Shown: positions 40,956 to 58,553 of the stretch, in pieces
Numbering within the stretch: position 1 is the first letter of the stretch
Layout: each line of letters opens with the position of its first letter
Source: Trypanosoma brucei
Lineage: Eukaryota
Assembly (NCBI GenBank): GCA_000002445.1
Contig: CH464491.1
Span: forward strand, 2,400,001 to 2,464,000
Direction: 5' to 3'
DNA: 64,000 nt
Program-made: the position numbers and the translations under genes
The notes under the pieces: generated by a model
What the model was told of the DNA's origin: nothing
Databases searched by the model: none
Seen by the model: only the letters and a program-made list of their open reading frames with translations

Positions 40956-42992
40956 GTGAGGTGGAGGCGGTTGAGTCGAGGTATGCAAAGATTGGCAGGG
41001 AAGCGGCAAAGGCAACATGAAGCAAGCGACCTTGTCCCCAAAAGTGCTGAACCCGCCAGAAGTAAAAATTCCAGGAACACTGCTTCTGAACCGGGCTCGG
41101 GTTCCCTCCGGCACAACTCCATAGGAGGGGGAGATATGATGTGGAAACGGAAAACAAAGGAACTTCGGGAGCAGATTGTTCAATTAGCCGCACTGTATGC
41201 AACGAAGGAACGTGAGACCGAAGAAGTCCAAGACGCCATAGAGGAAATGGTTGTCTCACACGAGGCGGAGTTAGCGGGTGTTGTAGCGGGTGACGAATCC
41301 CATAGGCGGCGGCACGTCGATGCACTCGTTCACTTGCGGGCCCGTGAGGACGGCTGCCATTCTGAAAGGCAGCGTGCCTTGGACGAAACGGTGGTATTGC
41401 AGCAGCAGCGTACAGAACTGGAGCGAGCGCATGACCGCCTTCGGGAAGATATCGTTATTCAATCTGATGCGTTAGAGCAGCTTCAAAGGGAAATTGAAGA
41501 ACAATCAGAAGAACTGTTAGAGGAACAGAGAAAACTAGATGCGATAGTGGAGCACCACAACCTCATGAGGGATGCTACCTACGGGTTTTCCGGGGAGGTC
41601 CAGGAAATAATGAGGGAACTGGAGCGCATCAAGGTTGACAAGGAAAGGGTTGAAAGAGCCGGAAAGCAGACGGAAATATTACGGCGTCAGCTGTATTCAC
41701 AATGTGAAGAGATGAAGGGAACGATCCGCGTGTACTGCCGCGTTAAGGGTGGCTTGAACTCGGAGTCGGTTGCAGCGGGTCCGGTTCCTGATGTGCGTAG
41801 TGGGAGCAGCAACCCTTGCGGTGATCCTGATTTATGCCTCTCTGAGACCCCTCGCGAAGACTCTGTTTCCTCGCGGAGCACGATGCAAACAACCGTGAGC
41901 GCCAACCCAGCATGTATTTATGCTTCAAAGGAAATAGGGCAGATCAGAAGGGATGCTCCGGTGGGACGATTTATTTTCCCGGACGGTGATGCGACTGAGA
42001 AACGGTCGATTTGTGTGTTGCTTTCACGTAACAACGCCACCTCAACGGGAAGGCAAGAGTCGAAGGAAACATTTACTTTCGACCGTGTCTTCGACGGCAC
42101 CGCTAGCCAAGAGGCTGTTTACGCTGATGTCGAGCCCCTCGTAAACTGCGCCGTTGATGGCTACCGGGTTTGCGTTTTCGCTTACGGCCAGACGGGCTCC
42201 GGCAAAACCTATTCCATGCAGGGTGACCAACACGACGGGCAGCGCTGCGGCATAACACCCAGGGCACTACGGACAGTGTTCAAGCGGCGGGAAGAGTTAG
42301 AGGCTGATGGGTGGAAGTACCAACTTAGCTGCTATTTTGTGGAAATATACAACGAGGTTATCAGAGATTTGCTGCAAGAAGCTTCCCTGTACGAGCCCGG
42401 TGGGGCCGCGGCTTCCCAGCCAAATTATCACATCATCAAGCAAAGTAACGAAACTGGTTCAACAAGCATAAGCGGTGTTACAGAGAAGCGTATCAACTCA
42501 TTTGAGGACTTTCGGCGTTTGTATGACATCGCGATGAAGAACCGTAGCACGGCGAAGACGATGATAAACGACAGATCGTCCCGTTCCCACTGTATTTTCG
42601 TGCTGCGTATTATGGGCGAACACGCTGGTATACGTCAACGCAGTGAGGGGTCACTTTGCATGGTGGATTTGGCCGGGAGCGAGCGAGTACATGAGTCTGG
42701 TGTGCAAGGGAAACAGTTCAAGGAAGCAGTGAACATCAACCGCAGTTTGCTCGACCTCGGAAAGTGCATCAGTGCTCTTAACAAATCTGGAAGTGTGGCT
42801 CCATGGCGTAACTGCAAGTTGACATATTTACTGCAAAACTACCTGGGCGCAAAGGGTGGGAAGATGCTAATGCTCGTCACTGTGTCCGATCAGGAGGAGC
42901 ACTTGACAGAAAGTATCAATTCCCTTCGCTTCGCCAAACGCGTTAATCAGACGGCCATTGGCCCCTCAACGAAGCGTGTCGGTAACTTCTAA
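40956..42992 (+). CDS. C-terminal-motor kinesin (kinesin-14-like)
   Basis: An N-terminal coiled-coil region (about residues 60-250) is followed by a GTIRVYCRVKG neck typical of minus-end kinesins. The motor has a P-loop FAYGQTGSGKTYSM, switch I SSRSHCIF and switch II VDLAGSER. The motor lies at the C-terminus. The exact start ATG is uncertain (40956, or a downstream Met). Confidence 0.85.
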   Translation: MRWRRLSRGMQRLAGKRQRQHEASDLVPKSAEPARSKNSRNTASEPGSGSLRHNSIGGGDMMWKRKTKELREQIVQLAALYATKERETEEVQDAIEEMVVSHEAELAGVVAGDESHRRRHVDALVHLRAREDGCHSERQRALDETVVLQQQRTELERAHDRLREDIVIQSDALEQLQREIEEQSEELLEEQRKLDAIVEHHNLMRDATYGFSGEVQEIMRELERIKVDKERVERAGKQTEILRRQLYSQCEEMKGTIRVYCRVKGGLNSESVAAGPVPDVRSGSSNPCGDPDLCLSETPREDSVSSRSTMQTTVSANPACIYASKEIGQIRRDAPVGRFIFPDGDATEKRSICVLLSRNNATSTGRQESKETFTFDRVFDGTASQEAVYADVEPLVNCAVDGYRVCVFAYGQTGSGKTYSMQGDQHDGQRCGITPRALRTVFKRREELEADGWKYQLSCYFVEIYNEVIRDLLQEASLYEPGGAAASQPNYHIIKQSNETGSTSISGVTEKRINSFEDFRRLYDIAMKNRSTAKTMINDRSSRSHCIFVLRIMGEHAGIRQRSEGSLCMVDLAGSERVHESGVQGKQFKEAVNINRSLLDLGKCISALNKSGSVAPWRNCKLTYLLQNYLGAKGGKMLMLVTVSDQEEHLTESINSLRFAKRVNQTAIGPSTKRVGNF

Positions 42993-43200
42993 AGAGATGC
43001 TGTGAAAGTTCTTCTTCTTCTTTGCCTCTCGTAGCCACTAGACTCACTGTCTCCTACATATTTCTTGTTACTGACCATGTTTGTGTTGAAACTATCGGCG
43101 CGCCTCTGCCCGTTTCCACGGAAAGGCGTGCTGCTCCAGACAGGGAGGATCAGTGAGGCAGCGGGTGCATCTGGTTGTGTCTCACCTCGATGTGCGAGGA

Positions 43201-43202
<2 letters not shown>

Positions 43203-43226
<24 letters not shown>
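43203..43226. repeat. (TA)12 microsatellite followed by (TG)n-rich stretch
   Basis: The run tatatatatatatatatatatata is in the spacer downstream of the kinesin gene. Confidence 0.95.
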
Positions 43227-43236
<10 letters not shown>

Positions 43237-43792
43237 CGTATGTTCTCTTATTAGTACATCACACTATCAGAGCGGACGTAAATCAGGCCTATATTTCGCC
43301 GGTTGGTGACCTTGGACCTGGCCAAAGAGTTTCTTCCGCCTTCTTATCATCGGGGATACGTGGTGTGTAAAATCAGTTTGCCCTACATGTCGGTACAGCA
43401 CCGCTGGAAATGGTAATTGCAGTACCGTTTTTGAATGCAGCAAGCGCACCTTTCGCTAAAACTTGGTCGACGTGTCGATGGCTACTTGTTCCCCTTGGCT
43501 TTTTCCGAATGGCGATCCCGAAAAAGGGGGGATAACGAAAGGTCGGACAGTGCTTTTACCCTTGATATTACCACATGTTTCCCTGCCCGTGCAACTCTGT
43601 CTTTTCCCTTTCTTTTCCTGTGGTGCAGTGAGGCAACCAAACAAGAATAAAAAGAAAGCGATTTTAAGGGAAGCAGGGAAGATAGTTCAAAGGGGTTGGA
43701 AAGGAAGAAAAGGCCAAGCACGAAGGGGAAGCTTCTGGCTCAGTGGGAGGCATATCGAGTACGGAAGCATCGACCCAAAGGAGTCGTAACAA

Positions 43793-46102
43793 ATGCTGCC
43801 TTGCCCAAGCGAAGGCACAACCCGTGATCTTCAAGGGGCGTGGTTTGGTGCAGCTACAGATTGTTGTTCAGATCACAATCCTTCAAGTGTTTACTCCGAC
43901 GATGGGCAGGCGCAGAATCCCGAAACCAACTTTTTGGATGAAAAAAGCGGTTGTGCTGGTGGAAGCGCGTGGGCAAAACTAACATCGGTTATCCCAGAAT
44001 TCAATGAAGGCAATGAAGAACTCCCTGAGCTTCCCGCATGTGTAGAGAAGCTCGGGCTGAGTCCCCTTGAGCAAAAGGTCTTTTCCTGGATGAGGGAGCA
44101 AGAAGAAAAACCATGGAGTTGTGAAATTTCCACCTTACTTCCCGAGGGTGCATCGCCTGTGGGGGAGCAAGTGGAGCAGGATAGGGCTAAAGGCGGTATA
44201 CTATTCGGTATCGGCAGTGATAAGCTGATGGCACCCCTGCGTGCGCTGCGTGAGGTCGATCATCAGAGAAGCCACTCTACACTGGAAACCACCGTTTGCA
44301 TCGATGGTGGTCCAATGCTTGTGTTGTGTAAGAAACGCCACGTACGGCGGTTAATGGAGATTCTGCATCATGATGGCGCCCACTCACTTTCCCGGGTTTT
44401 GGCTTACACCGGCCGAGGAAACGTTCACTTGACACCGACCCAGATAGGTTCGGATTATGATTATGTACTCTCAACGTACAGTACACTTCGGCGTGAGCCT
44501 GATCCGAGGTCCGAACTCCCAGGGAAACTGTACCTGGTCCACTGGAGGCGTGTTGTGCTTTTCGAGCCGTACTTCTTGTGTGACTTCACTCGCACTGAGA
44601 GCTACTTGTGCACTGAGTTGCAGGCAGACGCTCGGTGGATCTTCTGTGGAGAACGGTTTGTAATGCAAACACATAAACTCTACGGGTTTGTTCGTTTCTT
44701 GAACGAGCCGTCGTTAAAGTCATGGGTATTTTGGAGTGAACGAGTGGCGGACAAGAAGGGAGTGGATCGTTCGGTTTTCGATTCTGATAAAAACACGGAG
44801 CTGAAACGAGTGCTCTCTACAATGTGTCGTCAGACCCGGCGGGCATGCCTAATAAGGGAGGGTGGCCGAGGCGCCAACAGTATGAATGTGATTAAAGTCA
44901 ACCTAACGGAGGAGGAGAAGGAGTTCTACAACGCTACATTTGACAGGGCGGTGAGTAGTGTCTCCTCTTCAACTGATCAGCAAACGTCGTGCCTCCCGGT
45001 ACTCGAAATCATCAACTTGTGCCGTCTCATTACCCTTCATTTGTATGTTGGTCGGGAGACTTTTCAACGGATGAGCCCCCCGCCCCTCACTCCAGAAGAA
45101 CGCGAGGAGCAGCTAACGTCATTTTTCGACCTGCTTGCCAACGACGGATTGCGCGAGCGTGCATTCACCACAGAACTGAGGAATAAGTTACGAAGTGGAG
45201 TTCTTGACGAAGAATGTGGCATTTGTTTTTTGAGGATTAACACGCCTGGAATCCTTAACTGTGCGCACTATTTTTGCGTGGGATGCATTGACAAAATCAA
45301 GAAAAGCGGTCGCCCATACTGCCCCAATTGCAGAACTGTGCTAAATCATCGGACTGTCGTTCCACCCGGGTTGCTCAAGTGCCCTGAGGACGAACCTGTA
45401 CCGAGTGACTTTTCCCAGTGGGGTCCGAGCTCCAAGGCCGAGGTACTTGTCGAGAACTTGAAGAAACTCTCTGGCGACCACAGGGCGATTGTATTTGGTT
45501 GTTCAAGTCAATTCTTTCAATATTTGCAATGGTACCTGCGGCAACATGGGATGGATACTTACACTTTTGGCAGCTGCAAGGGACTGCAAGAAGTGAAAAG
45601 AGTACAACAATGGTTGGACAGCGGTGCCCAAGGGGCGAGTGCGGAGAGGAATGATGAAAGCAAGCATCTACCTCGTGTTCTGCTCGTCCTATTAACCGAC
45701 TGCGACGAAGACGTGCGCTTCAAGGGTATAACCCACTGCTTCTTCATGCACGCGACGTGGTGTCCCATTATCGAGCATCATGCTCTTCAATGCATTGAAC
45801 ATTGTGACGAGGAGAAAGAGTTGGAGGTGGTGAAGATTTTAGCAAATGTTGGGTTAGAACAGACAATTGATGAACTGTGCCAGAGGAAGCGGAGTGACGG
45901 TTCCGATGATTATATTACCTCAGCCGAGGTGTTTGAGGTGTTTAACGAAACTGCCAACGTCAATGATTTCATGGTTCGTACCACCACACAGGTTCCGCAA
46001 AACGAAGAGGGCGAGAACAACGAAGAGGGCGAGAACAACGAAGAGGGCTACGAGAGTGACGAAGAGTACGAGGGCGACGAAGAGGATGGTGATAATCAGT
46101 GA
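43793..46102 (+). CDS. RING-finger protein with degenerate SNF2/RAD5-type helicase-like regions (probable pseudo-ATPase) and acidic tandem-repeat tail
   Basis: A C3HC4 RING is present (CGICFLRINTPGILNCAHYFCVGCIDKIKKSGRPYCPNCR). Upstream there is an SNF2 motif III/IV-like remnant (ARWIFCGERFVMQTHKLYGFVRFLNEPS, compare RWxLTGTPIQNxLxELxSLLxFL). Downstream there is a helicase-C-like block (HRAIVFGCSSQFFQYLQWYLRQHGMDTYTFGS; QCIEHCDEEKELEVVKIL in place of QAxDRxHRIGQ). No Walker A (GKT) or DExH box is present in the 769 aa. Confidence 0.65.
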   Translation: MLPCPSEGTTRDLQGAWFGAATDCCSDHNPSSVYSDDGQAQNPETNFLDEKSGCAGGSAWAKLTSVIPEFNEGNEELPELPACVEKLGLSPLEQKVFSWMREQEEKPWSCEISTLLPEGASPVGEQVEQDRAKGGILFGIGSDKLMAPLRALREVDHQRSHSTLETTVCIDGGPMLVLCKKRHVRRLMEILHHDGAHSLSRVLAYTGRGNVHLTPTQIGSDYDYVLSTYSTLRREPDPRSELPGKLYLVHWRRVVLFEPYFLCDFTRTESYLCTELQADARWIFCGERFVMQTHKLYGFVRFLNEPSLKSWVFWSERVADKKGVDRSVFDSDKNTELKRVLSTMCRQTRRACLIREGGRGANSMNVIKVNLTEEEKEFYNATFDRAVSSVSSSTDQQTSCLPVLEIINLCRLITLHLYVGRETFQRMSPPPLTPEEREEQLTSFFDLLANDGLRERAFTTELRNKLRSGVLDEECGICFLRINTPGILNCAHYFCVGCIDKIKKSGRPYCPNCRTVLNHRTVVPPGLLKCPEDEPVPSDFSQWGPSSKAEVLVENLKKLSGDHRAIVFGCSSQFFQYLQWYLRQHGMDTYTFGSCKGLQEVKRVQQWLDSGAQGASAERNDESKHLPRVLLVLLTDCDEDVRFKGITHCFFMHATWCPIIEHHALQCIEHCDEEKELEVVKILANVGLEQTIDELCQRKRSDGSDDYITSAEVFEVFNETANVNDFMVRTTTQVPQNEEGENNEEGENNEEGYESDEEYEGDEEDGDNQ
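46001..46048 (+). repeat. In-frame 18-bp tandem repeat (aacgaagagggcgagaac, 2.7 copies) encoding NEEGEN repeats
   Basis: The sequence aacgaagagggcgagaac aacgaagagggcgagaac aacgaagagggc forms the C-terminal tail of the RING/SNF2-like CDS. Confidence 0.9.
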
Positions 46103-47405: not shown

Positions 47406-48797
47406 ATGCAGCAGCCATCACAACAACAGATTCAACCAATCGATTCCTTGTCGCCATTCCTTGGCGGCAAGTGGTGGATTCGCGCTCGCGTGACGGACAA
47501 GTCTGAAATACGAACGTGGAATAAACCAACCTCACAGGGGAAGCTGTTTTCTTTTACGCTCATTGACGAGTCTGCTTCTATCCGAGCGACGGTATTCAAT
47601 GAGGCCGTCGACATGTTCAATCCCCTCATAGTGAACGGACAGGTTTACTACTTTAGTGGGGGTCAGGTAAAAAATGCCAACCGTAAGTTCAGTAATGTGA
47701 ATAATGACTACGAGTTGAGCTTTGACAACACCTGTCAAATATCAGCAGCAAGGGATGTCGTTAGCTCGTCGATTCCCCTACAGCGGTATAACTTTGTGCC
47801 AATTGCCATCCTCAAGCAACGAGAAGTCGGTTCTTTAGTCGACGTGCTGGCTGTTGTGTTGAATGTGGAGGAATTGGGCACCATCGTACAGAGATCAACT
47901 GGTCGTGAGTTGGTCAGACGCACCGTGAAGGTTGCCGATTCCACCGCGGGGATTGACGTCACCCTGTGGAACGAAAACGCCAAAGAGTGGCCACATCAAC
48001 CTGGCACCGTACTGGCAATGCGGCAACTTAAGGTGGGGAGTTTTGATGGTGTAACGCTCTCCACAACAATGCAGTCATCGTTTGATGTTAATCCAAACAT
48101 CCCTGACGTGAAGAAGCTTCGTGAATGGTTTGAATCTACGGGTGGACGGGACGTCAGTTCACTTTCAATGCAGGGAAATAATGCTTTGGGGCTCGCGAGC
48201 AGTGGAGAAACCTACCGCGGCTACAAGTACATTGATGACATAACGACTGAGGGGCTCGGAAAAGGCCCGAAGCCGGACTACATCGATTTGCGTTGCGTTC
48301 CTGTTTACCTCAAACAGGATACACAGTGGTACGATGCCTGTCCACAATGCAACAAGAAAGTGATGCTCGAAGGGGCAATGGGTGATCGCTTCCGTTGTGA
48401 GAAATGTGACCAATCTATTGTACCAACACAACGGTACTTGGTGTCTATTCAAGTCACAGATAACGTTTCGCAGGTGTGGCTCACGCTCTTTAATGAGTCG
48501 GGAGCCGAGTTCTTTGGCATGACGGCTCCTGAACTAAAAAGACGTCAGGAGGAGGATCCCATGTTTGTGACAAAAGTGGCCCAGATGCGCATGAACCGTC
48601 CTGTGCTCATGCGTCTTCGTGTGAAGGAGGAGGGTCTCGGTGGCAATGAAGATTCGGAAAGGGTGCGCTTAAATGTTGTGCGCATTACGGAGTTTATGCC
48701 GCTGGACACCGTGACGGAGGATAAGCGACAAGCCATGGCGGCACAACTGCGGCAGGAGTGCGACGAAATGATTAAATGCATTAATGCCTACTTGTAA
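47406..48797 (+). CDS. RPA1: Replication protein A large subunit (RPA1/RPA70), short kinetoplastid form lacking the 70N domain
   Basis: 463 aa. Its OB-fold DNA-binding domains include the DBD-C zinc ribbon CPQCNKKVMLEGAMGDRFRCEKCDQ followed by YLVSIQVTDNVSQVWLTLFNESGAEFFG, which is highly characteristic of RPA70. The N-terminus (GGKWWIRARVTDKSEIRTWNKPTSQGKLFSFTLIDESASIRATVFNEAVD) is an OB fold of DBD-A type. Confidence 0.9.
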   Translation: MQQPSQQQIQPIDSLSPFLGGKWWIRARVTDKSEIRTWNKPTSQGKLFSFTLIDESASIRATVFNEAVDMFNPLIVNGQVYYFSGGQVKNANRKFSNVNNDYELSFDNTCQISAARDVVSSSIPLQRYNFVPIAILKQREVGSLVDVLAVVLNVEELGTIVQRSTGRELVRRTVKVADSTAGIDVTLWNENAKEWPHQPGTVLAMRQLKVGSFDGVTLSTTMQSSFDVNPNIPDVKKLREWFESTGGRDVSSLSMQGNNALGLASSGETYRGYKYIDDITTEGLGKGPKPDYIDLRCVPVYLKQDTQWYDACPQCNKKVMLEGAMGDRFRCEKCDQSIVPTQRYLVSIQVTDNVSQVWLTLFNESGAEFFGMTAPELKRRQEEDPMFVTKVAQMRMNRPVLMRLRVKEEGLGGNEDSERVRLNVVRITEFMPLDTVTEDKRQAMAAQLRQECDEMIKCINAYL

Positions 48798-50800: not shown

Positions 50801-51237
50801 TGCCCGTGAATGTGGGGCTCGTGTGTGTAAGCTAATATGTGACAGGAGTATTGAATTCTCATTTTGTTTATTCACACAGAACAAAGGGATGAAGTGGAGA
50901 TGGTAAATAACGATAAAGTCAAAGAAATGACGTGCCAGTGTCTACTCTTGAGTACGGAGAAGGGGCGCCTAGACCGTTGTAGCGTGCCTTCGTGTTTTCC
51001 CCCCTTTCCATTCGTTATTCTTTCAAAACTTTTTTGTTTCCCATCTACTGTATTGGAGTGGCATCAGAGACAGATGTGTTTGCACGCAAAGGGGGAGGGC
51101 GCAACGGAGGATTGAGAGGAGGATGACGGTGTGTCGTGGACGGTTTCGCTTTCCGCAGTTTGACTCCTATCGTGCCCTGTTCCACATTTTCCACCTGTGA
51201 CAAATGGAAGGTGCGCATTCGCTTAATTTCCCCTTCA

Positions 51238-51258
51238 GTGTGTGTGTGTGTGTGTGTG
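51238..51258. repeat. (GT)10 microsatellite
   Basis: The run gtgtgtgtgtgtgtgtgtgtg lies inside the 5' over-extension of the 1819-codon ORF model. Confidence 0.95.
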
Positions 51259-51476
51259 CTCACTTTCATTTCACAGGTTTACTAACCCTGTCATTATTGT
51301 TCCCATTTTTCTTGACCTCGCCGTCGCTCACGTCTGTTGCTTTAGCAGTTGATACATCCCGCTCTGCTTGTCTACCGAGTTCCACTGGGGGTGGTGAAAC
51401 GGGAAGGTGCGAGAAAAGCGCCACCAAGAGAGAAGGGCAAAAAGAAACAGCGTTTCTACAGGGAGGCGCCGAAGAA

Positions 51477-54400
51477 ATGCGGCGTCTTATACTTGCCCAG
51501 ACTCTGCGGGTGGCGGGTCGTCACTGCCCGCCAGTCGCCATGTTTTTACAGAGGTTTTACAGGGGCCACGGAATAAGTACAGCCCTTCCACTGCATTACA
51601 GCAAGCGCCATCGCAAGAGAGAAGGGCGGATGTACGGTAAGCCTCTCCGTCCGGTAAGTGACGGGGAGAATGGCGCAAGTGGTGACGGTGGTGTCTTGAC
51701 GAGATGGGAGGCGGTGGTGAGCTCTCGCCATCAGTGCGAGTCCCCGGTTCAGACGTTAGCGAAATCGGAGAAACCGAAGAAGGCAGAAAACACGGTAGCG
51801 GGGAAAAAGACGGGATCAAGCCGCTTTTCCCACCGTCGCGACCATTCGGCGTACCCTTCAGGTGTACAGCCTGCCCCTCTCGCAACGTCCGGTTTGCCCA
51901 CGCAGTCGTCTGAGCGCCAACAACAGAAGCAGATCGGGCAGCAACAAGTGCCATTGGATGCGTTGCACCGTCTTTTTAAGGTGCATGCGGTTATGCGAAC
52001 CAATTATGAGGCGCTTGGAAAATGCACAAAAGTGCTGAAGAGCTTTTCAACGGCGTGTGCCGAAGCACTTCTCCAACTCGGCGTGCTGCAAAAAGAGCAG
52101 CCATCAGCTATGGAAAGGAAAGGTTTTATTTATGTGCAGCTCTGTAAGTCAGGTGCCACAGAGGCCAGTAAAAATGGGACATCTTCTCCTTGTTTCGTCT
52201 TACCACCCGAAAGTCCACTTTACCGCACAACCATCAAGTTTCCAACCATCACAGTGGAGCACGTGCTGACGACAACGGTGTCGTCTGGTTGCGGTGCAAA
52301 AGATTCTGGAGGGGATATTATGTCTGTTGATATGGAAGGCGCCGCCCCGTTCCCTATGGGACATTGTGAGTCACGTCCCTCTACATCCGCTGGAAATGGA
52401 GTGACCGCGGAGTATGACTGTGAAGGGGATGTGTTGAGTCACGGGGCCGCGTGGAATTCGATCATTGAAGGGTTCGGGCAGCTTGCTTTGAATCTAAAAC
52501 AAAATGCCTCTGTATCAGACTTTGCGCAGTTGGCGGAAACGCTGGCATACTTCAAGTGGGTAAAGGATGAAGAACAGGTAGGTTGGGGCACTGAAGATTG
52601 CGTGGTGAAGAAGTTTCGTGAGGCGATGGCAAATGCCAAAGACACCTCTGCTTCTGGAAGCGATCCGAACACGAGCGATGTAAGCGCGGCCCTTGCGGCC
52701 ATTGCAGAGTCATTTCTTAGGAAAATTCCTCGCGTGGACTGTATTGGCAGCGCGGTAGCGCACAGGGGAGGTGAACGGACTGCTCCCTCTGTTCACGCAA
52801 TTGACGTAATGCTGAATTTGGCGCTCCGCATGTGTCTTTCCCAGTGGCACGCCATGTCACACTTTGAAAGGATGAATATTGTTCTGTTCTGCACATATCC
52901 ATGGTTCGCGGAGGACCTAAGCATCGCAGCGGGTTTGTGCCTCACGCAGTCTTATCTCCAGTCCCTTCTCCGCGCAGATGCTGATGTGACTTATCAGCAT
53001 ACGTTTCACTACGTACGGCGTGTCTCCCGCCTTTGCTGGCCCTGTATACATGACACGGACTCTGCCCCTGTTAAGAAACTTCTCTTCCCGAGAGACCCCC
53101 AAGGCACCGCTGTTTCTTCCCACGCTTTGGAAGCGGTCAGCGTCGAGGAGAAGGACAATCAGTTGAATCAAAAGGAGGGACTGCAAGGTGAGGAGCAAGC
53201 TACAACCACATCCGAGTCAAAGCTAATGTGGCTCCCCTCGTTCAAAGACGCCTCATGCGTTTCGTACGGTTCTTCTATGAAGCAACGTGCGGCTTATGAG
53301 CTGCTGTTGTTATGGATGACGTGTGTAAATCCATCGGGCCTTCACCGTTCCTCCCCGCACGGTCGCTACGTGAGCGCCACTGGTATCGCAATTATTGACG
53401 TCGATCTCTTTGTCACACAGCGGTTTCGTACCGGCAAATCGAAGGACGAATGGTTACTGTTGCACCCGGTAGAAGGGGATGTTGTGGCCTCCGTCACCAT
53501 TAGGACTATGGTGCAACACTGTGAGACTCCCTATACGCTGACGCGGCTTTTCTTCTGCAACTTCCACAGTGTCTTGCCCCACATTTGGGGTGGAATAGGT
53601 GCACGACGGAGAGAGATCTTATGGACAGCGTGGTGTCGGGCTGTTGCTCAGCCGCTTGTGAACACTCTCTCAGGTTCAGACGAGGGGCAGCGGGAGGACG
53701 ATGGGGGGATGCAAACACTACAAATCACAGTAGATAACGCTGATCGAACGCTGGATTATTTAAAACCCTTAATATCGGCTCTAACGTCCGACGAGTTGTT
53801 TCTGCGACTAATAATGCGTTGTGCGGATAAGTCCTTAGAGGAGATGGCCCGTGAGATAGGAAGTGGCAACAACACCTTGCCCCTTAACAAGTGGTGCGCG
53901 CAACTTGCTGGGTTTGTATACAGTGTTGCGCTTGCTTTGCATTGCAGGGCCAAAAGGGAAGGATGCAACCGAGATGGGGGGCCATCGAGACCGAATACAG
54001 CGACTGATTCCGCGAATAAGAAAGTAGTATCAGGTAAGCAGACGGATAACCTCCCGAAAGGCACGCAGGAAGATATCTCTGACCTCCAACTGCAATTCAA
54101 AGCAGCTGTATCTGCGCTTTTGCGGAAGCTGAGTGCTGGGGATACGCAGGTAGCTGAGCAGCTACTTCACCACTTTTACGAGCCACACTTCAGTGGTGAT
54201 CAGGAACGAGAGGTTGTTGAGGACATCCAGAGGCATCTTCAGCAGGTGTGTGATTCTCAATCTCGTGATGCACTGCATGCTTGGATAGAATGCAGCGCCA
54301 GGGCTTCGTGTGAGGCAACTGTGCCTCTCAAGGAGGAGTTGCTTTGCAAGTGGCAACGCACGGTGCTAGAGGCGGACGCTGGGTTACCAGTTGTGTTACC

Positions 54401-56663
54401 GACAATTGTGGAGTGTTGTCGCGGCCTTGTCGGATTGGTAAAAAAAAGGGGGCGAAACATTTCCGGCAGGCGTCAAGGGCAACAGCGGGGAACAGAGAGT
54501 ACTACTGTGGGTGAAGAGAGCTCATGCAAGGAGGTGTTCTCAAAGGAAGAACTGCCGGTAGTAATAACTGTACTTTCCCGTGCGATGCTTAGTCGCACCT
54601 CCACGGTAAGCACTGTGGGCTTGACAAAAATATCGAGCGAGATCAGTACACTTCTGTCATCATGTGGTTACGAAACGGCTGACGGCAACACGAGTGGAGG
54701 TGGCCGCAACGGCCGCGAGCTGTGCGACACTAACACAGCAACGATTACTTCAGCAACCGCAGGGGAGCGTACGGTTGAACTGGAGTTAATCTTATCTGGC
54801 GAAATTGACCAGAAAGCGGGGGAATTACCTTGGATCACCATTCTCGAAGCTGTGCAACTACAGCTGGTGCCGTACACCGTTGTTAAAAACCTGCTAACGT
54901 CCTTCAAGGGTGGGTGCGACAACGGCAAAGAGCGTCTCCGGTGGCAGGAGCTGCAGAGGGACTTTCAACGGAAACGGCACCATCGCCTTGTGGGGAACAC
55001 CTTGGTGTTTCGGTGGTACGGTTGTGCTGTACCTAATGATGAGGGTTGGGAAGACGGATCTGGCCTCATGCGTCCAATGGCGGAGGACCGCGATAATGTG
55101 CACAGCGCCAGTCACCAAGGCCGTACTTCTACCGAGTTGGGGGCCTTCACGCGGCGTTTGCTCAAAACACTTGCCCGCGCTGAGGTGACTCGTCTCAACG
55201 ACAGGAAGGAAATAACTACCCAAACATTCGTCGTGGGCCCGAGTGATGACAGTGCCACACGTCACCCCACCCCAGGGCAGGAGGAAGATGCCAGTCTCCA
55301 CCGTTTAGATCTTCTCTTCAGGGTTCATACGCTGGCTGCACACATACTTATGACAGCTAGTACGAAGAAACCGCACATGATCCATGAGCTGTATGATACG
55401 CTCTTACACCTTGTTGAGAAGGTGATGCCAACTACTCCCAATGCTCTCGGCAACGCCAGTGATTTGTTGCTCTTGTGGTTAGTTGGTAGTGCGGTTGCAG
55501 TGGGATTGCGTTTCCGGCCTAACTTTCTCATTAAGTGGCCATCAGCTCCAGAAGTGTCATCAGGTAACCTGAAAAGTTGCCCGTCCGCTGAAGAAAAAAC
55601 TGTACACATCTTGCGCGACATTGAGCCATATCTGCAAAGTGAGTTGCTTCGGCCTACAGTGCGCCTACGGTTTGTCATTAATGTGTTAGTGGCTCTTCGC
55701 AGTCTTGAGTTGTTGGGAGCTCGCATCGACGTAGAAGGTCTGCACATGGATCAACTGTTGATCAGGGCGAGCGCTGACCGCAGGCTGCTGAGCCGCCACG
55801 TGAACCTGTTCCTTATTGGTTGCTCCGCCTTACAAAGCACACAGTCTTCGATTTTGCATACTGCTCTCCACCTGCGCGAGGCGAAGTATAACTTATCCTT
55901 CGCGGAGATCGAGCGAGCTTTCGTTGCGATTGCTCTGTCAGCTGATACGTTTGCCAGGCAGCATGAGGCCCTAATGGAGCAAAACTACCAACAGCAGCAA
56001 AACCGTACACTCTCAGTCGCAGTTGCAGCCAACAACACGACCCCTGCGCTCCGTGTGTCACCCGTCCAACTCAGGCACGCTTGGAGTGCACTGGGGCGGC
56101 GCGTGTTGGAGAATGCCGGAGAATCACCGACGGATCTGTTTGTGCGTGGGCTGCAGTGCGCTGCGGCGGTTGGGTGCATTGACTCGGCTCTGTATCAACA
56201 GCTTCTTTCGTACGTGGTGGAGTTTCGCTGGAAAGATCTTCATATATTAGACTGGGTGATGATACTGAGGACGGTGCGGCAATCCTTTGAAAACAGACGC
56301 AACCTAGAGGCGTACTTGAAGGAACCACTGCAGGCATTTATGTTGACGATGACAGTCAGTGGGGACAACAGCACGGAGCAATCAGTTCAGAAGGTCAACC
56401 TCAAGAATCACGAGGGTGAGCAGCTGCTGGAGGGGCTTTGCCTTTTCGCTGAAGCTCTTCCAGGTTTGTTTATAGGTGACAGGGAACTCTGGGGACTTTT
56501 GTGGCAAGCTCTTGGTTCCCAGTGGTCGGCGTGTTTTAATGCTGCCAGCAATATTGAGGAACAACAACGCATCACGGCATGGCTGCAGGAGATTAACGCA
56601 AGCTACGCCTGGGCTGCACGGGCAGCTGGGTTCCGTGGCTTGGATGAGCCCACCGCCTTGTGA
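51477..56663 (+). CDS. Very large hypothetical protein (about 1728 aa), no domain recognised
   Basis: A continuous 1819-codon + strand ORF runs 51204..56663. Its first ~90 codons run through a (GT)n microsatellite (51238..51258) and a pyrimidine-rich tract, so the real start is downstream. ATG 51477 (MRRLILAQTLRVAG) and ATG 51543 are candidates. The predicted protein is largely alpha-helical, Leu-rich and possibly HEAT/ARM-like, but I cannot assign a family. Confidence 0.55.
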   Translation: MRRLILAQTLRVAGRHCPPVAMFLQRFYRGHGISTALPLHYSKRHRKREGRMYGKPLRPVSDGENGASGDGGVLTRWEAVVSSRHQCESPVQTLAKSEKPKKAENTVAGKKTGSSRFSHRRDHSAYPSGVQPAPLATSGLPTQSSERQQQKQIGQQQVPLDALHRLFKVHAVMRTNYEALGKCTKVLKSFSTACAEALLQLGVLQKEQPSAMERKGFIYVQLCKSGATEASKNGTSSPCFVLPPESPLYRTTIKFPTITVEHVLTTTVSSGCGAKDSGGDIMSVDMEGAAPFPMGHCESRPSTSAGNGVTAEYDCEGDVLSHGAAWNSIIEGFGQLALNLKQNASVSDFAQLAETLAYFKWVKDEEQVGWGTEDCVVKKFREAMANAKDTSASGSDPNTSDVSAALAAIAESFLRKIPRVDCIGSAVAHRGGERTAPSVHAIDVMLNLALRMCLSQWHAMSHFERMNIVLFCTYPWFAEDLSIAAGLCLTQSYLQSLLRADADVTYQHTFHYVRRVSRLCWPCIHDTDSAPVKKLLFPRDPQGTAVSSHALEAVSVEEKDNQLNQKEGLQGEEQATTTSESKLMWLPSFKDASCVSYGSSMKQRAAYELLLLWMTCVNPSGLHRSSPHGRYVSATGIAIIDVDLFVTQRFRTGKSKDEWLLLHPVEGDVVASVTIRTMVQHCETPYTLTRLFFCNFHSVLPHIWGGIGARRREILWTAWCRAVAQPLVNTLSGSDEGQREDDGGMQTLQITVDNADRTLDYLKPLISALTSDELFLRLIMRCADKSLEEMAREIGSGNNTLPLNKWCAQLAGFVYSVALALHCRAKREGCNRDGGPSRPNTATDSANKKVVSGKQTDNLPKGTQEDISDLQLQFKAAVSALLRKLSAGDTQVAEQLLHHFYEPHFSGDQEREVVEDIQRHLQQVCDSQSRDALHAWIECSARASCEATVPLKEELLCKWQRTVLEADAGLPVVLPTIVECCRGLVGLVKKRGRNISGRRQGQQRGTESTTVGEESSCKEVFSKEELPVVITVLSRAMLSRTSTVSTVGLTKISSEISTLLSSCGYETADGNTSGGGRNGRELCDTNTATITSATAGERTVELELILSGEIDQKAGELPWITILEAVQLQLVPYTVVKNLLTSFKGGCDNGKERLRWQELQRDFQRKRHHRLVGNTLVFRWYGCAVPNDEGWEDGSGLMRPMAEDRDNVHSASHQGRTSTELGAFTRRLLKTLARAEVTRLNDRKEITTQTFVVGPSDDSATRHPTPGQEEDASLHRLDLLFRVHTLAAHILMTASTKKPHMIHELYDTLLHLVEKVMPTTPNALGNASDLLLLWLVGSAVAVGLRFRPNFLIKWPSAPEVSSGNLKSCPSAEEKTVHILRDIEPYLQSELLRPTVRLRFVINVLVALRSLELLGARIDVEGLHMDQLLIRASADRRLLSRHVNLFLIGCSALQSTQSSILHTALHLREAKYNLSFAEIERAFVAIALSADTFARQHEALMEQNYQQQQNRTLSVAVAANNTTPALRVSPVQLRHAWSALGRRVLENAGESPTDLFVRGLQCAAAVGCIDSALYQQLLSYVVEFRWKDLHILDWVMILRTVRQSFENRRNLEAYLKEPLQAFMLTMTVSGDNSTEQSVQKVNLKNHEGEQLLEGLCLFAEALPGLFIGDRELWGLLWQALGSQWSACFNAASNIEEQQRITAWLQEINASYAWAARAAGFRGLDEPTAL

Positions 56664-57185
56664 CGCAACAGGGCGGGCGTGGTGTAGATAGTTGCAAGGG
56701 GACCAAAGTAAATGGTCACAAAGGAGCGAGTGAACGGTGTAAGCGCATGTTATGGTCGTATCTTCACATTCTCTCACAAGGTAAACACCTTTAAAAAAAA
56801 AAAAGGAAGTATCCCATCTGGTGCTAGAAGTTGGTGAGGGATGCACCCATTCATGTGCCGGGAAATCACTACGTGTAATATTACTCATTTTAAAGGCGTT
56901 TGGTGCTGTGCACGAACCTCCATTCACTTTGTACAAAGCTTTGATCTGTGTCCTTCCGCACTTTTTTTTCAACTTCTTTGCTGTTGACAAAAGCATTTTC
57001 GGGTTTTTGTTTGGATTTTTATCGCTTCCACTCTCGTTGCGCATAATTTCACCAACATACATACATACTTCAAAGGAAAGGGGAGAAAGACAAATTATCC
57101 TTGCAGCTGTACAGGACTTATCGGAGGAAACGGACTGTAGGCGCACTTCTAGCACGGACCACTTAACTTCACTAGTGGCCGAAGC

Positions 57186-58553
57186 ATGGAGGATTTCGTT
57201 GTTGTGCCGGTGGAGGTGCGGTGTAGGCAAATGTGTACAGATGCCGCTGAGCTTTCAAAGGTTATCACGAGTTTCATACGGCACCGCAACGGTGTTACAC
57301 ACCCGGGTGACATTATCCCGCTTTGGGGTGCATCCGAGCTTATCACATCAACAGTTGAGCTCTTGCGGGTATGTGACGTTTATTGCCCACTTAACGGGGT
57401 TGCAGCGGGCAGGGCGGATTACGCATTGGTGATGTACTACCTTCATGGAGATGATGTGTCTATGGCAATGCAAGGAGAGGAAACTTCCGAGTCGCAGGCG
57501 CTGTTAACCTACCGCGATTCAGACGACGAAGTGGATGCATCGACTGTCCCTTGCTCCATAGTGCAGATACCGCATGCATCGCTAGAAGGCCTGTGGGAGT
57601 CGATGCATTTCGGGGACTCTACCTGTGACACGGTGGAGCTTAAGCGTGACTTGTTGCAATATATGCACACTGCAATGGTTTTCTCTATGGCTGATGTGAA
57701 CCCACAAGTCATCGCGTGGAATCAGTTGGTGCTGCTACACGGGCCCCCCGGCACAGGGAAGACATCTTTTTGTAAAGCACTTTCACATAAACTTTCTATA
57801 CGGCTTGCGGGAATATTTCCCAAGGCGAAGCTGGTAGAGGTTAACACTCAAAGTTTGTTTAGTCGTTGGTTTAGTGAGAGTGGGAAGCATGTCATGGGCC
57901 TGTTCCGCCGTATACACACGATGGCGGAGGATTCCAAATGCCTTCTTTTTGTCCTCGTGGACGAGGTGGAATCACTAGCTGGCGCGAGGAACTCTGCAAT
58001 GAGGGGTAACGAGCCCTCAGATGCTATCCGTGTCGTCAACACTCTGTTAACTCAGCTGGACATTCTACAGAAAAAGAGGAACGTGGTGATATTAGCTACG
58101 AGTAACATCACCGGGGCCATTGATGTCGCGTTTGTTGATCGTGCTGACAAGAAGGTATTTATTGGCCCACCGGGGTTACCAGCCCGTCTGCAACTAATCA
58201 GGGCAAGTACGCAAGAGTTGGTTCAGAGGCGGTTAATTATGCTTGATCCTCCCAATGATCAGGGGTTCATAGGCGCAGGGGGGCTGATGCCGATCGGGGA
58301 AGGTCGTGTAGAACTCAATGCGAGAGAGTTGCAGCGGCTTGAGCTGGTGGCGGCGCAATGTGATACCTTCAGTGGAAGGACTCTGAAGAAGCTTCCTTTC
58401 CTTGCCTACAGCAAACACATTGGTGGGTCCCCAGTCTTCACTACCGGAGAGAGTAGTACCGCATCTGCTATCTCATTTGACACGTACATTAAAAGCTTGA
58501 CGAGTGCTGTAGAGGGAGAAATATTATCGAGGAGAATGATGGTGTCATCATAG
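57186..58553 (+). CDS. TRIP13: AAA+ ATPase TRIP13 / PCH2 (pachytene checkpoint protein 2) homologue
   Basis: A long colinear match to the TRIP13 AAA+ core runs LVLLHGPPGTGKTSFCKALSHKLSIRL...SLFSRWFSESGKHV...LLFVLVDEVESLAGARN...EPSDAIRVVNTLLTQLDILQKKRNVVILATSNITGAIDVAFVDRADKKVFIGPP. It shares Walker A, Walker B (VDEVE) and the arginine-finger region with TRIP13/PCH2 as I remember them. Confidence 0.9.
   Translation: MEDFVVVPVEVRCRQMCTDAAELSKVITSFIRHRNGVTHPGDIIPLWGASELITSTVELLRVCDVYCPLNGVAAGRADYALVMYYLHGDDVSMAMQGEETSESQALLTYRDSDDEVDASTVPCSIVQIPHASLEGLWESMHFGDSTCDTVELKRDLLQYMHTAMVFSMADVNPQVIAWNQLVLLHGPPGTGKTSFCKALSHKLSIRLAGIFPKAKLVEVNTQSLFSRWFSESGKHVMGLFRRIHTMAEDSKCLLFVLVDEVESLAGARNSAMRGNEPSDAIRVVNTLLTQLDILQKKRNVVILATSNITGAIDVAFVDRADKKVFIGPPGLPARLQLIRASTQELVQRRLIMLDPPNDQGFIGAGGLMPIGEGRVELNARELQRLELVAAQCDTFSGRTLKKLPFLAYSKHIGGSPVFTTGESSTASAISFDTYIKSLTSAVEGEILSRRMMVSS

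What the first reader, a model, noticed from the sequence alone, without database searches (positions are those of the whole stretch)
43793..46102. RING E3-type protein built on a decayed SNF2/RAD5-like scaffold (probable pseudo-ATPase)
The protein has an intact C3HC4 RING finger embedded between sequence blocks that resemble SNF2 family motifs III/IV and the helicase-C motifs V/VI. This is the RAD5/RAD16/HLTF domain order. The N-terminal ATP-binding half is missing: there is no GxGKT and no DExH. The motif VI arginines are replaced (QCIEHCDEEKELEVV where QAxDRxHRIGQ is expected). An E3 ligase that keeps a helicase-like fold only as a scaffold would be an unusual, lineage-specific derivative of the post-replication-repair ubiquitin ligases. 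The alternative is that the gene is 5'-truncated in this assembly, or that the true N-terminus lies in another frame upstream, for example through a frameshift error.
Basis: partly seen in the sequence, partly recalled or inferred. Interest (0 to 1): 0.55.

Follow-up and report, generated by a model that had tools for sequence, protein, structure and literature searches.

The report
RING ligase on dead SNF2 motor
African trypanosomes keep a Rad5/Rad16-type DNA-repair protein whose ubiquitin-ligase RING finger is intact but whose ATP-driven motor has lost every catalytic motif, whereas the same gene in related parasites still has a working-looking motor.

Summary
The ORF at 43793-46102 (+, 769 aa) is real. 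It lies in a Trypanosoma brucei-group (Trypanozoon) chromosome 11 polycistron, directly upstream of RPA1 (Tb927.11.9130).

It is a full-length Rad5/16-like SNF2-RING protein, not a 5'-truncated one. Both RecA-like lobes are present: Pfam SNF2-rel_dom E=4e-13 over profile positions 7-284 of 290, lobe-only BLASTP E=5e-15 and 4e-17, and an AF2 model (pLDDT 79) whose best PDB match is Rad5.

The ATPase motifs are destroyed:
- Motif I: GLGKT is now GIGSD, with a 3-residue deletion.
- Motif II: DEAH is now FEPY.
- Motif III: TATP..N is now CGER..M.
- Motif V: GVGLNL is now DEDVRF.
- Motif VI: QA..R.HRIGQ is now HALQCIEHCDE.

The C3HC4 RING keeps 10 of 10 family-conserved positions.

Syntenic orthologues date the decay. 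Phytomonas and three other kinetoplastids are canonical. T. grayi is intermediate. T. congolense is as degenerate as T. brucei.

The gene evolves fast (27% identity between T. brucei and T. grayi, against 79% for RPA1). Its ORF is nevertheless intact in five genomes, and pN (0.46) is below pS (0.79).

The most likely reading is an ATP-independent RING E3 on a dead SNF2 scaffold. That function is inferred, not shown.

The parts
43793..46102 (+). Complete CDS (769 aa plus stop) of the SNF2-RING pseudo-ATPase. By position it is the gene directly upstream of RPA1 (Tb927.11.9130).
   Evidence: ORF list. The same ORF is intact in T. b. gambiense, T. equiperdum and a third Trypanozoon assembly. RPA1 identity to Trypanozoon.
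43600..43627 (+). 20-nt polypyrimidine tract (43600-43619) followed by an AG at 43626-43627. This is the probable spliced-leader acceptor and would place the mRNA 5' end about 165 nt before the ATG.
   Evidence: Sequence read directly. Its function is inferred from general kinetoplastid trans-splicing rules and was not tested.
43793..43963 (+). N-terminal tail, aa 1-57, predicted disordered. No HIRAN domain and no RanBP2-type zinc finger.
   Evidence: AF2 pLDDT below 50 for aa 1-57. No Pfam family at E<=10 in this part.
44069..44722 (+). RecA-like lobe 1 of the SNF2 core, aa 93-310. The fold is retained and the catalytic motifs are lost.
   Evidence: Pfam SNF2-rel_dom 49.6 bits, aa 98-413, profile positions 7-284 of 290. 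BLASTP of this segment against canonical orthologue P0004 gives E=5e-15. AF2 shows a beta-alpha pattern with pLDDT mostly 80-96.
44186..44230 (+). Remnant of motif I (Walker A), AKGGILFGIGSDKLM. The family consensus is GGILADxMGLGKT. Three residues are deleted, Lys is replaced by Ser and Thr by Asp.
   Evidence: Alignment A2. BLASTP alignment. Column table.
44543..44584 (+). Remnant of motif II (Walker B/DExH), WRRVVLFEPYFLCD. The consensus is WxRviLDEaHxIrN, so DEAH has become FEPY.
   Evidence: T. congolense has FHPP at the same place.
44630..44680 (+). Remnant of motif III, ARWIFCGERFVMQTHKL. The consensus is RWxxTgTPiqNxlxDL.
44723..45202 (+). Helical insertion, aa 311-470, between lobe 1 and the RING. 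This is the SNF2-specific helical region, as in Rad5.
   Evidence: AF2 long helices H373-392, H396-415, H417-427, H434-450 and H456-467. Collinear with K. lactis Rad5.
45215..45334 (+). C3HC4 RING finger, aa 475-514. Zinc ligands are C475, C478, C490, H492, C495, C498, C510 and C513. Ile477, Pro485, Pro511 and Arg514 are also retained.
   Evidence: Pfam zf-C3HC4 and zf-C3HC4_3 above their cut-offs. 10 of 10 family-conserved RING columns retained. AF2 pLDDT 84-93.
45410..45907 (+). RecA-like lobe 2, aa 540-705 (helicase-C-like). The fold is retained and motifs V and VI are lost.
   Evidence: BLASTP of this segment against P0004 gives E=4e-17. phmmer against Rad5 extends to aa 703. There is no Pfam Helicase_C hit. 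Foldseek top hits are Rad5 and other SNF2 ATPases.
45674..45730 (+). Remnant of motif V, RVLLVLLTDCDEDVRFKGI. The consensus is vlLxslkagGVGlNLtxA.
45749..45820 (+). Remnant of motif VI, HATWCPIIEHHALQCIEHCDEEKE. The consensus is DpwWnPaxExQAxxRvHRxGQ. Both arginines are lost (R to C, R to H), and GQ has become DE.
   Evidence: The first R-to-C change is shared with T. congolense and T. grayi.
46001..46084 (+). Acidic C-terminal tail encoded by imperfect 18-nt/9-nt tandem repeats (NEEGEN / YESDEE). Copy number differs between Trypanozoon strains.
   Evidence: TRF. Strain alignment showing 768, 769 and 786 aa versions.

Best explanation
The gene encodes a full-length member of the Rad5/16-like branch of SNF2 proteins. 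Its layout is lobe 1, helical insertion, RING, lobe 2.

In the African (salivarian) trypanosomes T. brucei and T. congolense it has become a pseudo-ATPase. The two RecA-like lobes survive as a folded scaffold. The residues that bind and hydrolyse ATP, and that couple hydrolysis to DNA translocation (motifs I, II, III, V, VI), have been replaced. The RING finger that recruits an E2~ubiquitin is fully preserved.

Shown:
- Fold and homology of both lobes.
- Loss of all catalytic motifs.
- Selective retention of the RING.
- Positional orthology to canonical SNF2-RING ATPases in other kinetoplastids.
- An intermediate state in T. grayi.
- Strong lineage-specific rate acceleration.
- An ORF kept open, with fewer nonsynonymous than synonymous changes.

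Inferred:
- The protein cannot hydrolyse ATP or translocate on DNA.
- It still works as a RING E3, or as the RING-bearing subunit of one. The dead SNF2 core would serve as a static platform for DNA, chromatin or substrate binding, analogous to the helicase-independent ubiquitin-ligase role of Rad5.

Likely history: the first motif VI arginine was lost (R to C) in the common ancestor of the three Trypanosoma species sampled. After that, constraint on the remaining motifs collapsed in the salivarian lineage.
For: Homology and fold
- Pfam SNF2-rel_dom E=3.9e-13, covering profile positions 7-284 of 290; RING families above cut-off.
- Rad5 6l8n E=4e-11, collinear over aa 223-703.
- Each lobe alone against canonical orthologue P0004: E=5e-15 and 4e-17.
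- AF2 pLDDT 79.1, pTM 0.75. Foldseek top hits are Rad5 6l8n/6l8o at E~1e-27, followed by other SNF2 motors.

Motif loss
- Alignment of 62 relatives.
- Of 86 columns that are >=85% conserved in 59 canonical relatives, T. brucei keeps 46, T. congolense 44 and T. grayi 68. Canonical sequences keep >=90%.
- T. brucei keeps 10 of 10 RING columns but only 18 of 43 columns in motifs I, II, III, V and VI. Fisher p=8e-4.
- Among the 150 best representatives from 1.84 billion proteins, only the query and T. congolense lack motifs I, II and VI together; the other sequences flagged there lack one or two, and many are short.

Orthology by synteny (kinesin, [aldolase_II], this gene, RPA1, RESC7)
- T. grayi, Phytomonas and three further kinetoplastid contigs.
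- The Phytomonas, L008, L009 and L010 orthologues pass the motif I/II/VI census; all five, T. grayi included, have Helicase_C hits.

Rate
- Identity between T. brucei and T. grayi is 27% here, against 79% for RPA1 and 63% for the kinesin.
- Phytomonas against the outgroup-like L010 is 48% for this gene.

Retention
- ORF intact in four Trypanozoon genomes and in T. congolense.
- T. brucei against T. congolense: pN 0.46 and pS 0.79 (saturated), similar in the lobes and the RING.

Precedent for separable activities: Rad5's RING-dependent function is needed for lesion tolerance while its helicase activity is not (PMC9751372).
Against: - No biochemical or genetic data exist for this gene. E3 activity, DNA binding, localisation and expression were not tested.
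- Evolution is very fast (dN about 0.7 between T. brucei and T. congolense). Within Trypanozoon pN/pS is about 0.6-0.7, which cannot be distinguished from neutrality (12 nonsynonymous against 5 synonymous changes, p=0.32). Constraint is therefore weak.
- The lobes are conserved no less than the RING between T. brucei and T. congolense. The scaffold may therefore have a function that this model does not specify.
- The AF2 model was built from an alignment dominated by active relatives, which favours the canonical fold.
- T. vivax, T. cruzi and Leishmania orthologues could not be retrieved, so the dating of the decay rests on few taxa.
Confidence: 0.68

Rival explanations
1. The gene is a relic in slow decay. 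After the ATPase was lost the whole gene came under relaxed selection, and it is on its way to pseudogenisation. The intact RING would be a leftover, not a sign of function.
For: Divergence is extreme compared with the neighbouring genes. Within-Trypanozoon pN/pS of about 0.6-0.7 is not significantly below 1. The C-terminal repeat is length-variable and one assembly has a frameshifted tail. There is no published function.
Against: A 2.3-kb ORF is open in four Trypanozoon genomes and in T. congolense, although synonymous sites are saturated. pN 0.46 is well below pS 0.79 in every region. The RING keeps 10 of 10 (T. brucei) and 9 of 10 (T. congolense) conserved positions, against about 40% in the ATPase motifs (p=8e-4 and 5e-3). 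Uniform neutral decay does not predict such selective retention.
Confidence: 0.12
2. The protein is a non-catalytic partner, in the manner of the trypanosome 'prozymes'. Neither the motor nor the RING acts alone. The protein would pair with an active SNF2-RING paralogue such as TbRAD5 (Tb927.7.1090), or with another RING protein, and regulate or target it, as inactive RING partners do in heterodimeric E3s.
For: Both lobes are conserved between T. brucei and T. congolense as well as the RING is, which suggests the scaffold surface matters. T. brucei has a separate HIRAN-containing RAD5 (bioRxiv 10.1101/543975). From general knowledge, trypanosomes repeatedly use dead paralogues as activators (AdoMetDC, DHS and PRMT1 prozymes).
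Against: No interaction data exist. This gene is an orthologue that decayed in place, not a duplicated dead paralogue (synteny). The RING retains Ile477, Pro511 and Arg514, the positions typical of E2-engaging RINGs.
Confidence: 0.15
3. The protein is still an ATPase that uses non-canonical residues.
For: A Lys remains two residues downstream of the Walker A position (GIGSDKL). Glu258 of DEAH is retained in T. brucei.
Against: T. congolense has neither residue (CSASCDELM; FHPP). Both motif VI arginines are gone, as are motif III and motif V. Three residues are deleted from the P-loop. There is no Pfam Helicase_C signal.
Confidence: 0.03
4. Assembly or annotation artefact: the gene is 5'-truncated or frameshifted, and an intact ATPase half lies upstream.
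For: None found.
Against: Lobe 1 lies inside the ORF. An in-frame stop lies directly before the ATG, and the upstream sequence has no SNF2-like coding potential. Three independent assemblies have identical N-termini. T. congolense has the same architecture.
Confidence: 0.01

Closest known systems
Rad5 / HLTF (Rad5/16-like grouping of the SNF2 family; solved structure K. lactis Rad5, PDB 6l8n)
   Same: The domain order is the same: SNF2 lobe 1, helical insertion, C3HC4 RING, lobe 2. It is the best sequence match (E=4e-11; family profile 751 bits) and the best fold match (E~1e-27) in the PDB. Rad5's ubiquitin-ligase role can be separated from its helicase activity (PMC9751372).
   Different: There is no HIRAN domain. 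Walker A, DExH, motifs III and V and both motif VI arginines are all lost. T. brucei has a separate HIRAN-containing RAD5, Tb927.7.1090, so this gene is not the Rad5 orthologue.
Canonical kinetoplastid orthologues of the same gene (Phytomonas sp. EM1 CCW62310.1 = P0005; unnamed kinetoplastid contigs L008, L009, L010)
   Same: They are positional orthologues between the kinesin and RPA1, with the same SNF2-RING-helicase-C architecture.
   Different: They keep GLGKT, DEAH and QAxxRxHRIGQ and score 174-199 bits on SNF2-rel_dom, with Helicase_C hits. The T. brucei protein scores 49.6 bits and has no Helicase_C hit. Two relatives in this clade, the L010 orthologue and P0004/P0008, carry an N-terminal RanBP2-type zinc finger that is absent here.
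T. grayi 'DNA repair protein-like protein' XP_009306434.1 (P0003)
   Same: It is a syntenic orthologue within the genus Trypanosoma. It shares the R-to-C loss of the first motif VI arginine and the accelerated evolution.
   Different: It still has NLGKT and DEAH and a Helicase_C hit of 46.6 bits. It is an intermediate, possibly still nucleotide-binding, state.
Rad16 and Ris1/Uls1/Rrp1-type SNF2-RING translocases
   Same: They lack HIRAN and have a RING inserted in the SNF2 core. They belong to the same Rad5/16-like grouping (Rrp1 is described as such in PMC8266636, abstract).
   Different: All of them are active translocases. Assignment of the kinetoplastid clade to one of these subfamilies could not be resolved here, because no reference sequences or solved structures were available.

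Membership tests
SNF2 family (Rad5/16-like grouping), by fold and ancestry | SNF2-type lobe 1 recognised by a curated profile above threshold | tested here: met
   PF00176 scores 49.6 bits against a cut-off of 24.9, aa 98-413, profile positions 7-284 of 290.
SNF2 family (Rad5/16-like grouping), by fold and ancestry | Helicase-C-type lobe 2 | tested here: inconclusive
   There is no PF00271 hit even at E<=10. However, lobe 2 alone aligns to a canonical orthologue at E=4e-17 and to Rad5, and AF2/Foldseek give a two-lobe SNF2 fold.
SNF2 family (Rad5/16-like grouping), by fold and ancestry | RING inserted between motifs III and IV | tested here: met
   The RING at aa 475-513 lies between the motif III remnant (aa 280-296) and the motif IV region (aa 563-576).
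SNF2 family, as an active ATPase or translocase | Walker A GxGKT (motif I) | tested here: not met
   GIGSD replaces GLGKT, with a 3-residue deletion. No GK[ST] occurs anywhere in the protein.
SNF2 family, as an active ATPase or translocase | Walker B DExH (motif II) | tested here: not met
   FEPY in T. brucei and FHPP in T. congolense.
SNF2 family, as an active ATPase or translocase | Motif VI arginines (QAxxRxxRxGQ) | tested here: not met
   HALQCIEHCDE: R to C, R to H, and GQ to DE.
SNF2 family, as an active ATPase or translocase | DNA-stimulated ATP hydrolysis | not testable with these tools
   Needs recombinant protein.
Rad5/HLTF proper | N-terminal HIRAN domain | tested here: not met
   No PF08797 hit at E<=10. 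The region before lobe 1 is only 92 aa, and its first 57 aa are predicted disordered. The HIRAN-bearing TbRAD5 is a different gene.
Rad5/HLTF proper | Ubc13-Mms2-dependent PCNA polyubiquitination | not testable with these tools
   A biochemical or genetic assay is required.
RING-type (C3HC4) E3 ubiquitin ligase | Eight zinc ligands with cross-brace spacing C-x2-C-x(9-39)-C-x(1-3)-H-x(2-3)-C-x2-C-x(4-48)-C-x2-C | tested here: met
   C475-x2-C478-x11-C490-x-H492-x2-C495-x2-C498-x11-C510-x2-C513. PF00097 and PF13920 score above their cut-offs.
RING-type (C3HC4) E3 ubiquitin ligase | Residues typical of E2 engagement: Ile in C-x-I-C, Pro in C-P-x-C, and a basic residue after the last Cys | tested here: met
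   Ile477, Pro511 and Arg514 are present. Their role is assumed from general RING knowledge and was not assayed.
RING-type (C3HC4) E3 ubiquitin ligase | E2-dependent ubiquitin transfer | not testable with these tools
   An in vitro ubiquitination assay is required.
Pseudogene | Disrupted reading frame, or nonsynonymous rate equal to synonymous rate | tested here: not met
   The ORF is intact in four Trypanozoon genomes and in T. congolense. pN 0.46 against pS 0.79 between T. brucei and T. congolense. Within Trypanozoon the result is inconclusive.

The most novel reading that the evidence does not exclude
The dead SNF2-RING protein was not merely tolerated but repurposed in salivarian trypanosomes. 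It would be an ATP-independent, chromatin- or ssDNA-anchored E3, or a 'prozyme'-like partner of an active Rad5/16 paralogue. It would act in a lineage-specific genome-maintenance task such as recombination-based antigenic variation or replication-stress handling. If so, it would be a natural separation-of-function allele showing what a Rad5/16-like scaffold does without its motor.
Probability: 0.12. Interest if true: 0.75.

Novelty: new variant of a known kind. Interest (0 to 1): 0.5.

Why it matters
Rad5/Rad16/HLTF-type proteins combine a DNA motor with a ubiquitin ligase, and how far the two activities depend on each other is still debated. Here evolution has run the separation-of-function experiment. 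One lineage kept the RING and the folded scaffold for a long time after destroying every ATPase motif, while sister lineages keep the motor, and T. grayi shows an intermediate step. This gives a comparative system of canonical, intermediate and dead forms, in which each form can be tested for its ability to replace the others.

It also adds an SNF2-family case to the pseudoenzymes already known in trypanosomes. I found no paper in the searched library that contains both 'SNF2' and 'pseudo-ATPase'.

There is a practical point for annotation. The precomputed Pfam tables list no family at all for the Trypanozoon gene calls, so automated pipelines probably leave this gene as 'hypothetical'. A label based on ancestry alone, such as 'DNA repair helicase', would be misleading.

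Tried and rejected
- The search for homologous proteins was run twice, once with the single sequence and once with a 3-sequence profile. It returned only fungal and bacterial SNF2 proteins and no kinetoplastid. It did not even return the T. grayi and T. congolense sequences that formed part of the query alignment, so I did not spend the third search.
- Consequently T. cruzi, T. vivax, T. theileri and Leishmania orthologues could not be retrieved. T. vivax did not appear among the best 150 representatives.
- The afdb50 fold library was unavailable, so the UniProt name of the T. brucei protein could not be recovered.
- Literature searches by gene ID found only RPA1 papers and one paper for Tb11.01.0850 (TbUNC119), which was not opened; none concerned this gene. 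I tried Tb927.11.9110, Tb927.11.9120 and Tb927.11.9130, and Tb11.01.0850, Tb11.01.0860 and Tb11.01.0870. The ID Tb927.11.9120 is only my positional guess and is unverified.
- The TrypTag supplement search gave nothing.
- A lead to ESB1, a RING/U-box protein, was rejected because it is a different gene, Tb927.10.3800.
- The review of trypanosomatid ubiquitination mentions only SNF2PH.
- Source names for more distant relatives were generic ('SNF2 family helicase', 'DNA repair protein RAD5'). They did not resolve the choice among the Rad16, Ris1 and Rad5 subfamilies.
- tblastn for a relic of the aldolase_II gene in the upstream intergenic region found nothing.
Full report
**Where the window comes from**

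All ORFs of 200 aa or more but one (56382..57230, on the minus strand, overlapping plus-strand ORFs) lie on the + strand, as in a kinetoplastid polycistron. The ORF at 47406-48797 is identical to the RPA1 large subunit of Trypanozoon: T. brucei TREU927 Q384B5, T. b. gambiense and T. equiperdum. Papers identify this gene as Tb927.11.9130. The finding is therefore the gene directly upstream of RPA1 on T. brucei-group chromosome 11. The flanking genes are a C-terminal-motor kinesin at 40956-42992 and a CFAP96-like gene further upstream.

**Check of the observation**

- The ORF is exactly 43793..46102, 769 aa.
- Pfam finds SNF2-rel_dom (E=3.9e-13, 49.6 bits against a cut-off of 24.9) over aa 98-413, matching profile positions 7-284 of 290.
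- Pfam also finds several RING models over aa 472-517. It finds no Helicase_C even at E<=10.
- phmmer against PDB sequences gives K. lactis Rad5 (6l8n) at E=4e-11, collinear from aa 223 to 703. In that alignment DEGH aligns to FEPY, and QAIDRIHRIGQ aligns to HALQCIEHCDE.
- The protein contains no GK[ST], no DE.H and no R..R.GQ, but it does contain a complete C3HC4 pattern.

The statement that the N-terminal ATP-binding half is missing is not. Lobe 1 is there. Taken alone (aa 93-310) it aligns to a canonical kinetoplastid orthologue with E=5e-15. In that alignment GGILADYMGLGKTKM is opposite GGIL---FGIGSDKLM, so the Walker A Lys is replaced by Ser and the Thr by Asp. Lobe 2 alone (aa 540-705) gives E=4e-17.

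**Truncation or frameshift is excluded**

- A stop codon in the same frame ends at 43789, one codon before the ATG.
- The 800 bp upstream contain a (TA)13 microsatellite and a 20-nt polypyrimidine tract at 43600-43619, followed by an AG at 43626-43627. This is the usual look of a trypanosome intergenic region with a trans-splice acceptor. The acceptor function is inferred.
- The same ORF with the same N-terminus occurs in T. b. gambiense DAL972, T. equiperdum OVI and a third Trypanozoon assembly. These differ by at most 12 amino-acid substitutions over aa 1-745, and otherwise only in the copy number of a C-terminal acidic repeat.
- T. congolense TcIL3000_11_9470 (718 aa) has the same architecture.

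**Relatives and ancestral state**

An exhaustive HMMER search of 1.84 billion cluster representatives found 1026 relatives. The two best were T. congolense (34% identity, E=4e-87) and T. grayi XP_009306434.1 (31%, E=1e-61). A clade of kinetoplastid SNF2-RING proteins followed.

Gene order proves orthology. The order CFAP96-like, kinesin, (aldolase_II), SNF2-RING, RPA1, RESC7 is seen in full in T. grayi and Phytomonas sp. EM1, and in part in three further kinetoplastid contigs from sequencing-run assemblies.

The Phytomonas, L008, L009 and L010 orthologues pass the regex census for GKT, DExH and R..R.GQ, and alignment blocks show the canonical motifs for Phytomonas and for further relatives of the clade. 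All four have Helicase_C hits, and SNF2-rel_dom scores of 174-199 bits were measured for Phytomonas and three other clade members. The ancestral gene was therefore an ordinary SNF2-RING ATPase.

**Motif by motif** (alignment A2, 62 sequences)

| Motif | Family consensus | T. brucei | T. congolense | T. grayi |
|---|---|---|---|---|
| I | GGILADxMGLGKT | GGIL---FGIGSDKL | GGVLCSASCDELM | GGIFADTRNLGKT |
| II | DEAH | FEPY | FHPP | DEAH |
| III | TgTPiqN | CGERFVM | LHLVHVE | TPTPVVK |
| V | GVGLNL | DEDVRF | DCGVRL | ALGMDL |
| VI | QAxxRvHRxGQ | HALQCIEHCDE | CVLECINQYGQ | DAISCLQRIGQ |

- Of 86 columns that are at least 85% conserved among 59 canonical relatives, T. brucei keeps 46, T. congolense 44 and T. 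grayi 68. Every canonical sequence keeps at least 90%.
- In the RING, T. brucei keeps 10 of 10 such columns: all eight zinc ligands, Pro485 and Pro511. T. congolense keeps 9 of 10. Ile477 and Arg514 are also present in T. brucei.
- In motifs I, II, III, V and VI together, T. brucei keeps only 18 of 43 and T. congolense 17 of 43. The contrast with the RING is significant (Fisher p=8e-4 and 5e-3).
- Phe at the Walker B Asp position is shared by T. brucei and T. congolense. Cys at the first motif VI Arg is shared by all three Trypanosoma species.
- This suggests a stepwise history. An arginine finger was lost in the common ancestor of the three Trypanosoma species sampled, and the rest of the motifs then collapsed before T. 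brucei and T. congolense split. This is an inference from three taxa.

**Fold**

An AlphaFold2 model built on alignment A2 has mean pLDDT 79.1 and pTM 0.75. It shows two alpha/beta lobes, a long helical insertion and a confident RING (pLDDT 84-93). Residues 1-57 are disordered. Foldseek against the PDB ranks K. lactis Rad5 first (E about 1e-27), followed by Mot1, CSB, SMARCAD1, ISW1 and other SNF2 motors. The family profile also finds Rad5 first, at 751 bits in a single stretch. One caveat applies: the alignment used for modelling is dominated by active relatives.

**Evolutionary rate and selection**

The figures below are fractional identities. The SNF2-RING gene was compared over 625 ungapped columns, and the neighbouring genes in the same genomes serve as controls.

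| Gene | T. brucei / T. congolense | T. brucei / T. grayi | T. brucei / Phytomonas | T. grayi / Phytomonas |
|---|---|---|---|---|
| SNF2-RING | 0.34 | 0.27 | 0.24 | 0.38 |
| RPA1 | n/a | 0.79 | 0.67 | 0.72 |
| Kinesin | n/a | 0.63 | 0.50 | 0.51 |

- For the SNF2-RING gene, the non-Trypanosoma orthologues (Phytomonas, L008, L009, L010) share 0.47-0.59 with one another.
- The gene is therefore strongly accelerated in Trypanosoma, and most strongly in the salivarian species.
- It is nevertheless not a pseudogene. The ORF is open in five genomes. Between T. brucei and T. congolense synonymous sites are saturated (pS 0.79) while pN is 0.46, with similar values in lobe 1, the helical region, the RING and lobe 2.
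- Within Trypanozoon there are 12 nonsynonymous and 5 synonymous differences (pN/pS about 0.6-0.7). This cannot be distinguished from neutrality (p=0.32), whereas RPA1 has none and two.
- Identity between T. brucei and T. congolense is even along the protein, at 28-38%. The scaffold is therefore constrained about as much as the RING overall, even though the catalytic positions are not.

**Most likely mechanism**

It is shown that the protein keeps the SNF2 fold and the RING and lacks the residues for ATP binding and hydrolysis. It is inferred that the protein cannot translocate on DNA and acts as a RING E3, or as a RING-bearing subunit. The dead motor would serve as a fixed platform for binding DNA, chromatin or substrate.

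This is plausible for two reasons. In yeast Rad5 the RING-dependent function is required for lesion tolerance whereas the helicase activity is not (PMC9751372). T. brucei also has a separate HIRAN-containing RAD5, Tb927.7.1090 (bioRxiv 10.1101/543975), which may cover motor-dependent roles. I put about 0.9 on the pseudo-ATPase claim and about 0.5 on the E3 claim.

Rivals, with my estimates:
- A relic under relaxed selection (0.12).
- A non-catalytic partner of another E3 or SNF2 protein (0.15).
- A cryptic ATPase (0.03).
- An assembly artefact (0.01).

**Comparison with known families**

The protein works like, and descends from, the Rad5/16-like group of SNF2-RING proteins. It fails the defining tests of an active SNF2 ATPase (motifs I, II and VI) and of Rad5/HLTF proper (no HIRAN). 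I file it as a derived, catalytically dead member by ancestry, not as a Rad5. The subfamily of the kinetoplastid clade (Rad16-like or Ris1-like) could not be resolved.

No paper in the searched library deals with this gene or contains both 'SNF2' and 'pseudo-ATPase'. The precomputed Pfam tables list no family for the Trypanozoon gene calls.

**Verdict**

This is a real, well-supported feature. It is a new variant of a known kind: a lineage-specific SNF2-RING pseudo-ATPase. Interest is moderate (0.5). It is not categorically new, but it is an uncharacterised natural separation-of-function case, with a ready-made comparative series of canonical, intermediate and dead forms.

Noticed in passing
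window 42993-43792; L001 6789-7454; L002 6067-6750; L009 3777-4463: A class II aldolase/adducin-type gene (Pfam Aldolase_II, about 220 aa) lies between the kinesin and the SNF2-RING gene in T. grayi, Phytomonas and contig L009. It is absent from the window, and also from L008 and L010. tblastn finds no relic of it anywhere in the window.
   Followed up: partly
window 13367-25155: Tandem array of five similar ORFs of 383-394 aa (13367-14551, 17613-18797, 19885-21069, 21955-23106, 23992-25155). The three that were scanned are ZIP zinc transporters (Pfam Zip, E about 1e-42 to 1e-47). AT skew is strongly negative across 18-26 kb.
   Followed up: partly
window 46001-46084; L003 and L005 gene tails: The acidic C-terminal tail is encoded by 18-nt/9-nt repeats whose copy number differs between Trypanozoon assemblies (768, 769 and 786 aa). 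In assembly GCA_003543875.1 the tail is frameshifted into a basic 'TKSTRA' repeat, which is either a sequencing error in the repeat or a real variant.
   Followed up: partly
L001 8001-10376 (T. grayi orthologue, P0003): T. grayi is an evolutionary intermediate. Walker A and DEAH are intact and Helicase_C is detectable. However, the first motif VI arginine is Cys, as in T. brucei and T. congolense. Motif V is ALGMDL and the motif III Asn is Lys. Whether it is still an ATPase is open.
   Followed up: partly
window 43203-43229: (TA)13.5 microsatellite in the intergenic region between the kinesin and the SNF2-RING gene.
   Followed up: no
window 51204-56663: An ORF of 1819 aa downstream of RPA1/RESC7 has no Pfam family at E<=1e-5. 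Long genes without any listed Pfam family, cut at the locus end (products of 1728, 2136 and 2298 aa), occupy the corresponding position downstream of RESC7 in L003-L005, L002 and L009.
   Followed up: no
L003 2339-4699, L004 2391-4697, L005 2378-4726: The precomputed Pfam tables list no family for the Trypanozoon gene calls of this protein, although hmmscan run here gives SNF2-rel_dom and RING hits above threshold. The gene is probably under-annotated in public resources.
   Followed up: no
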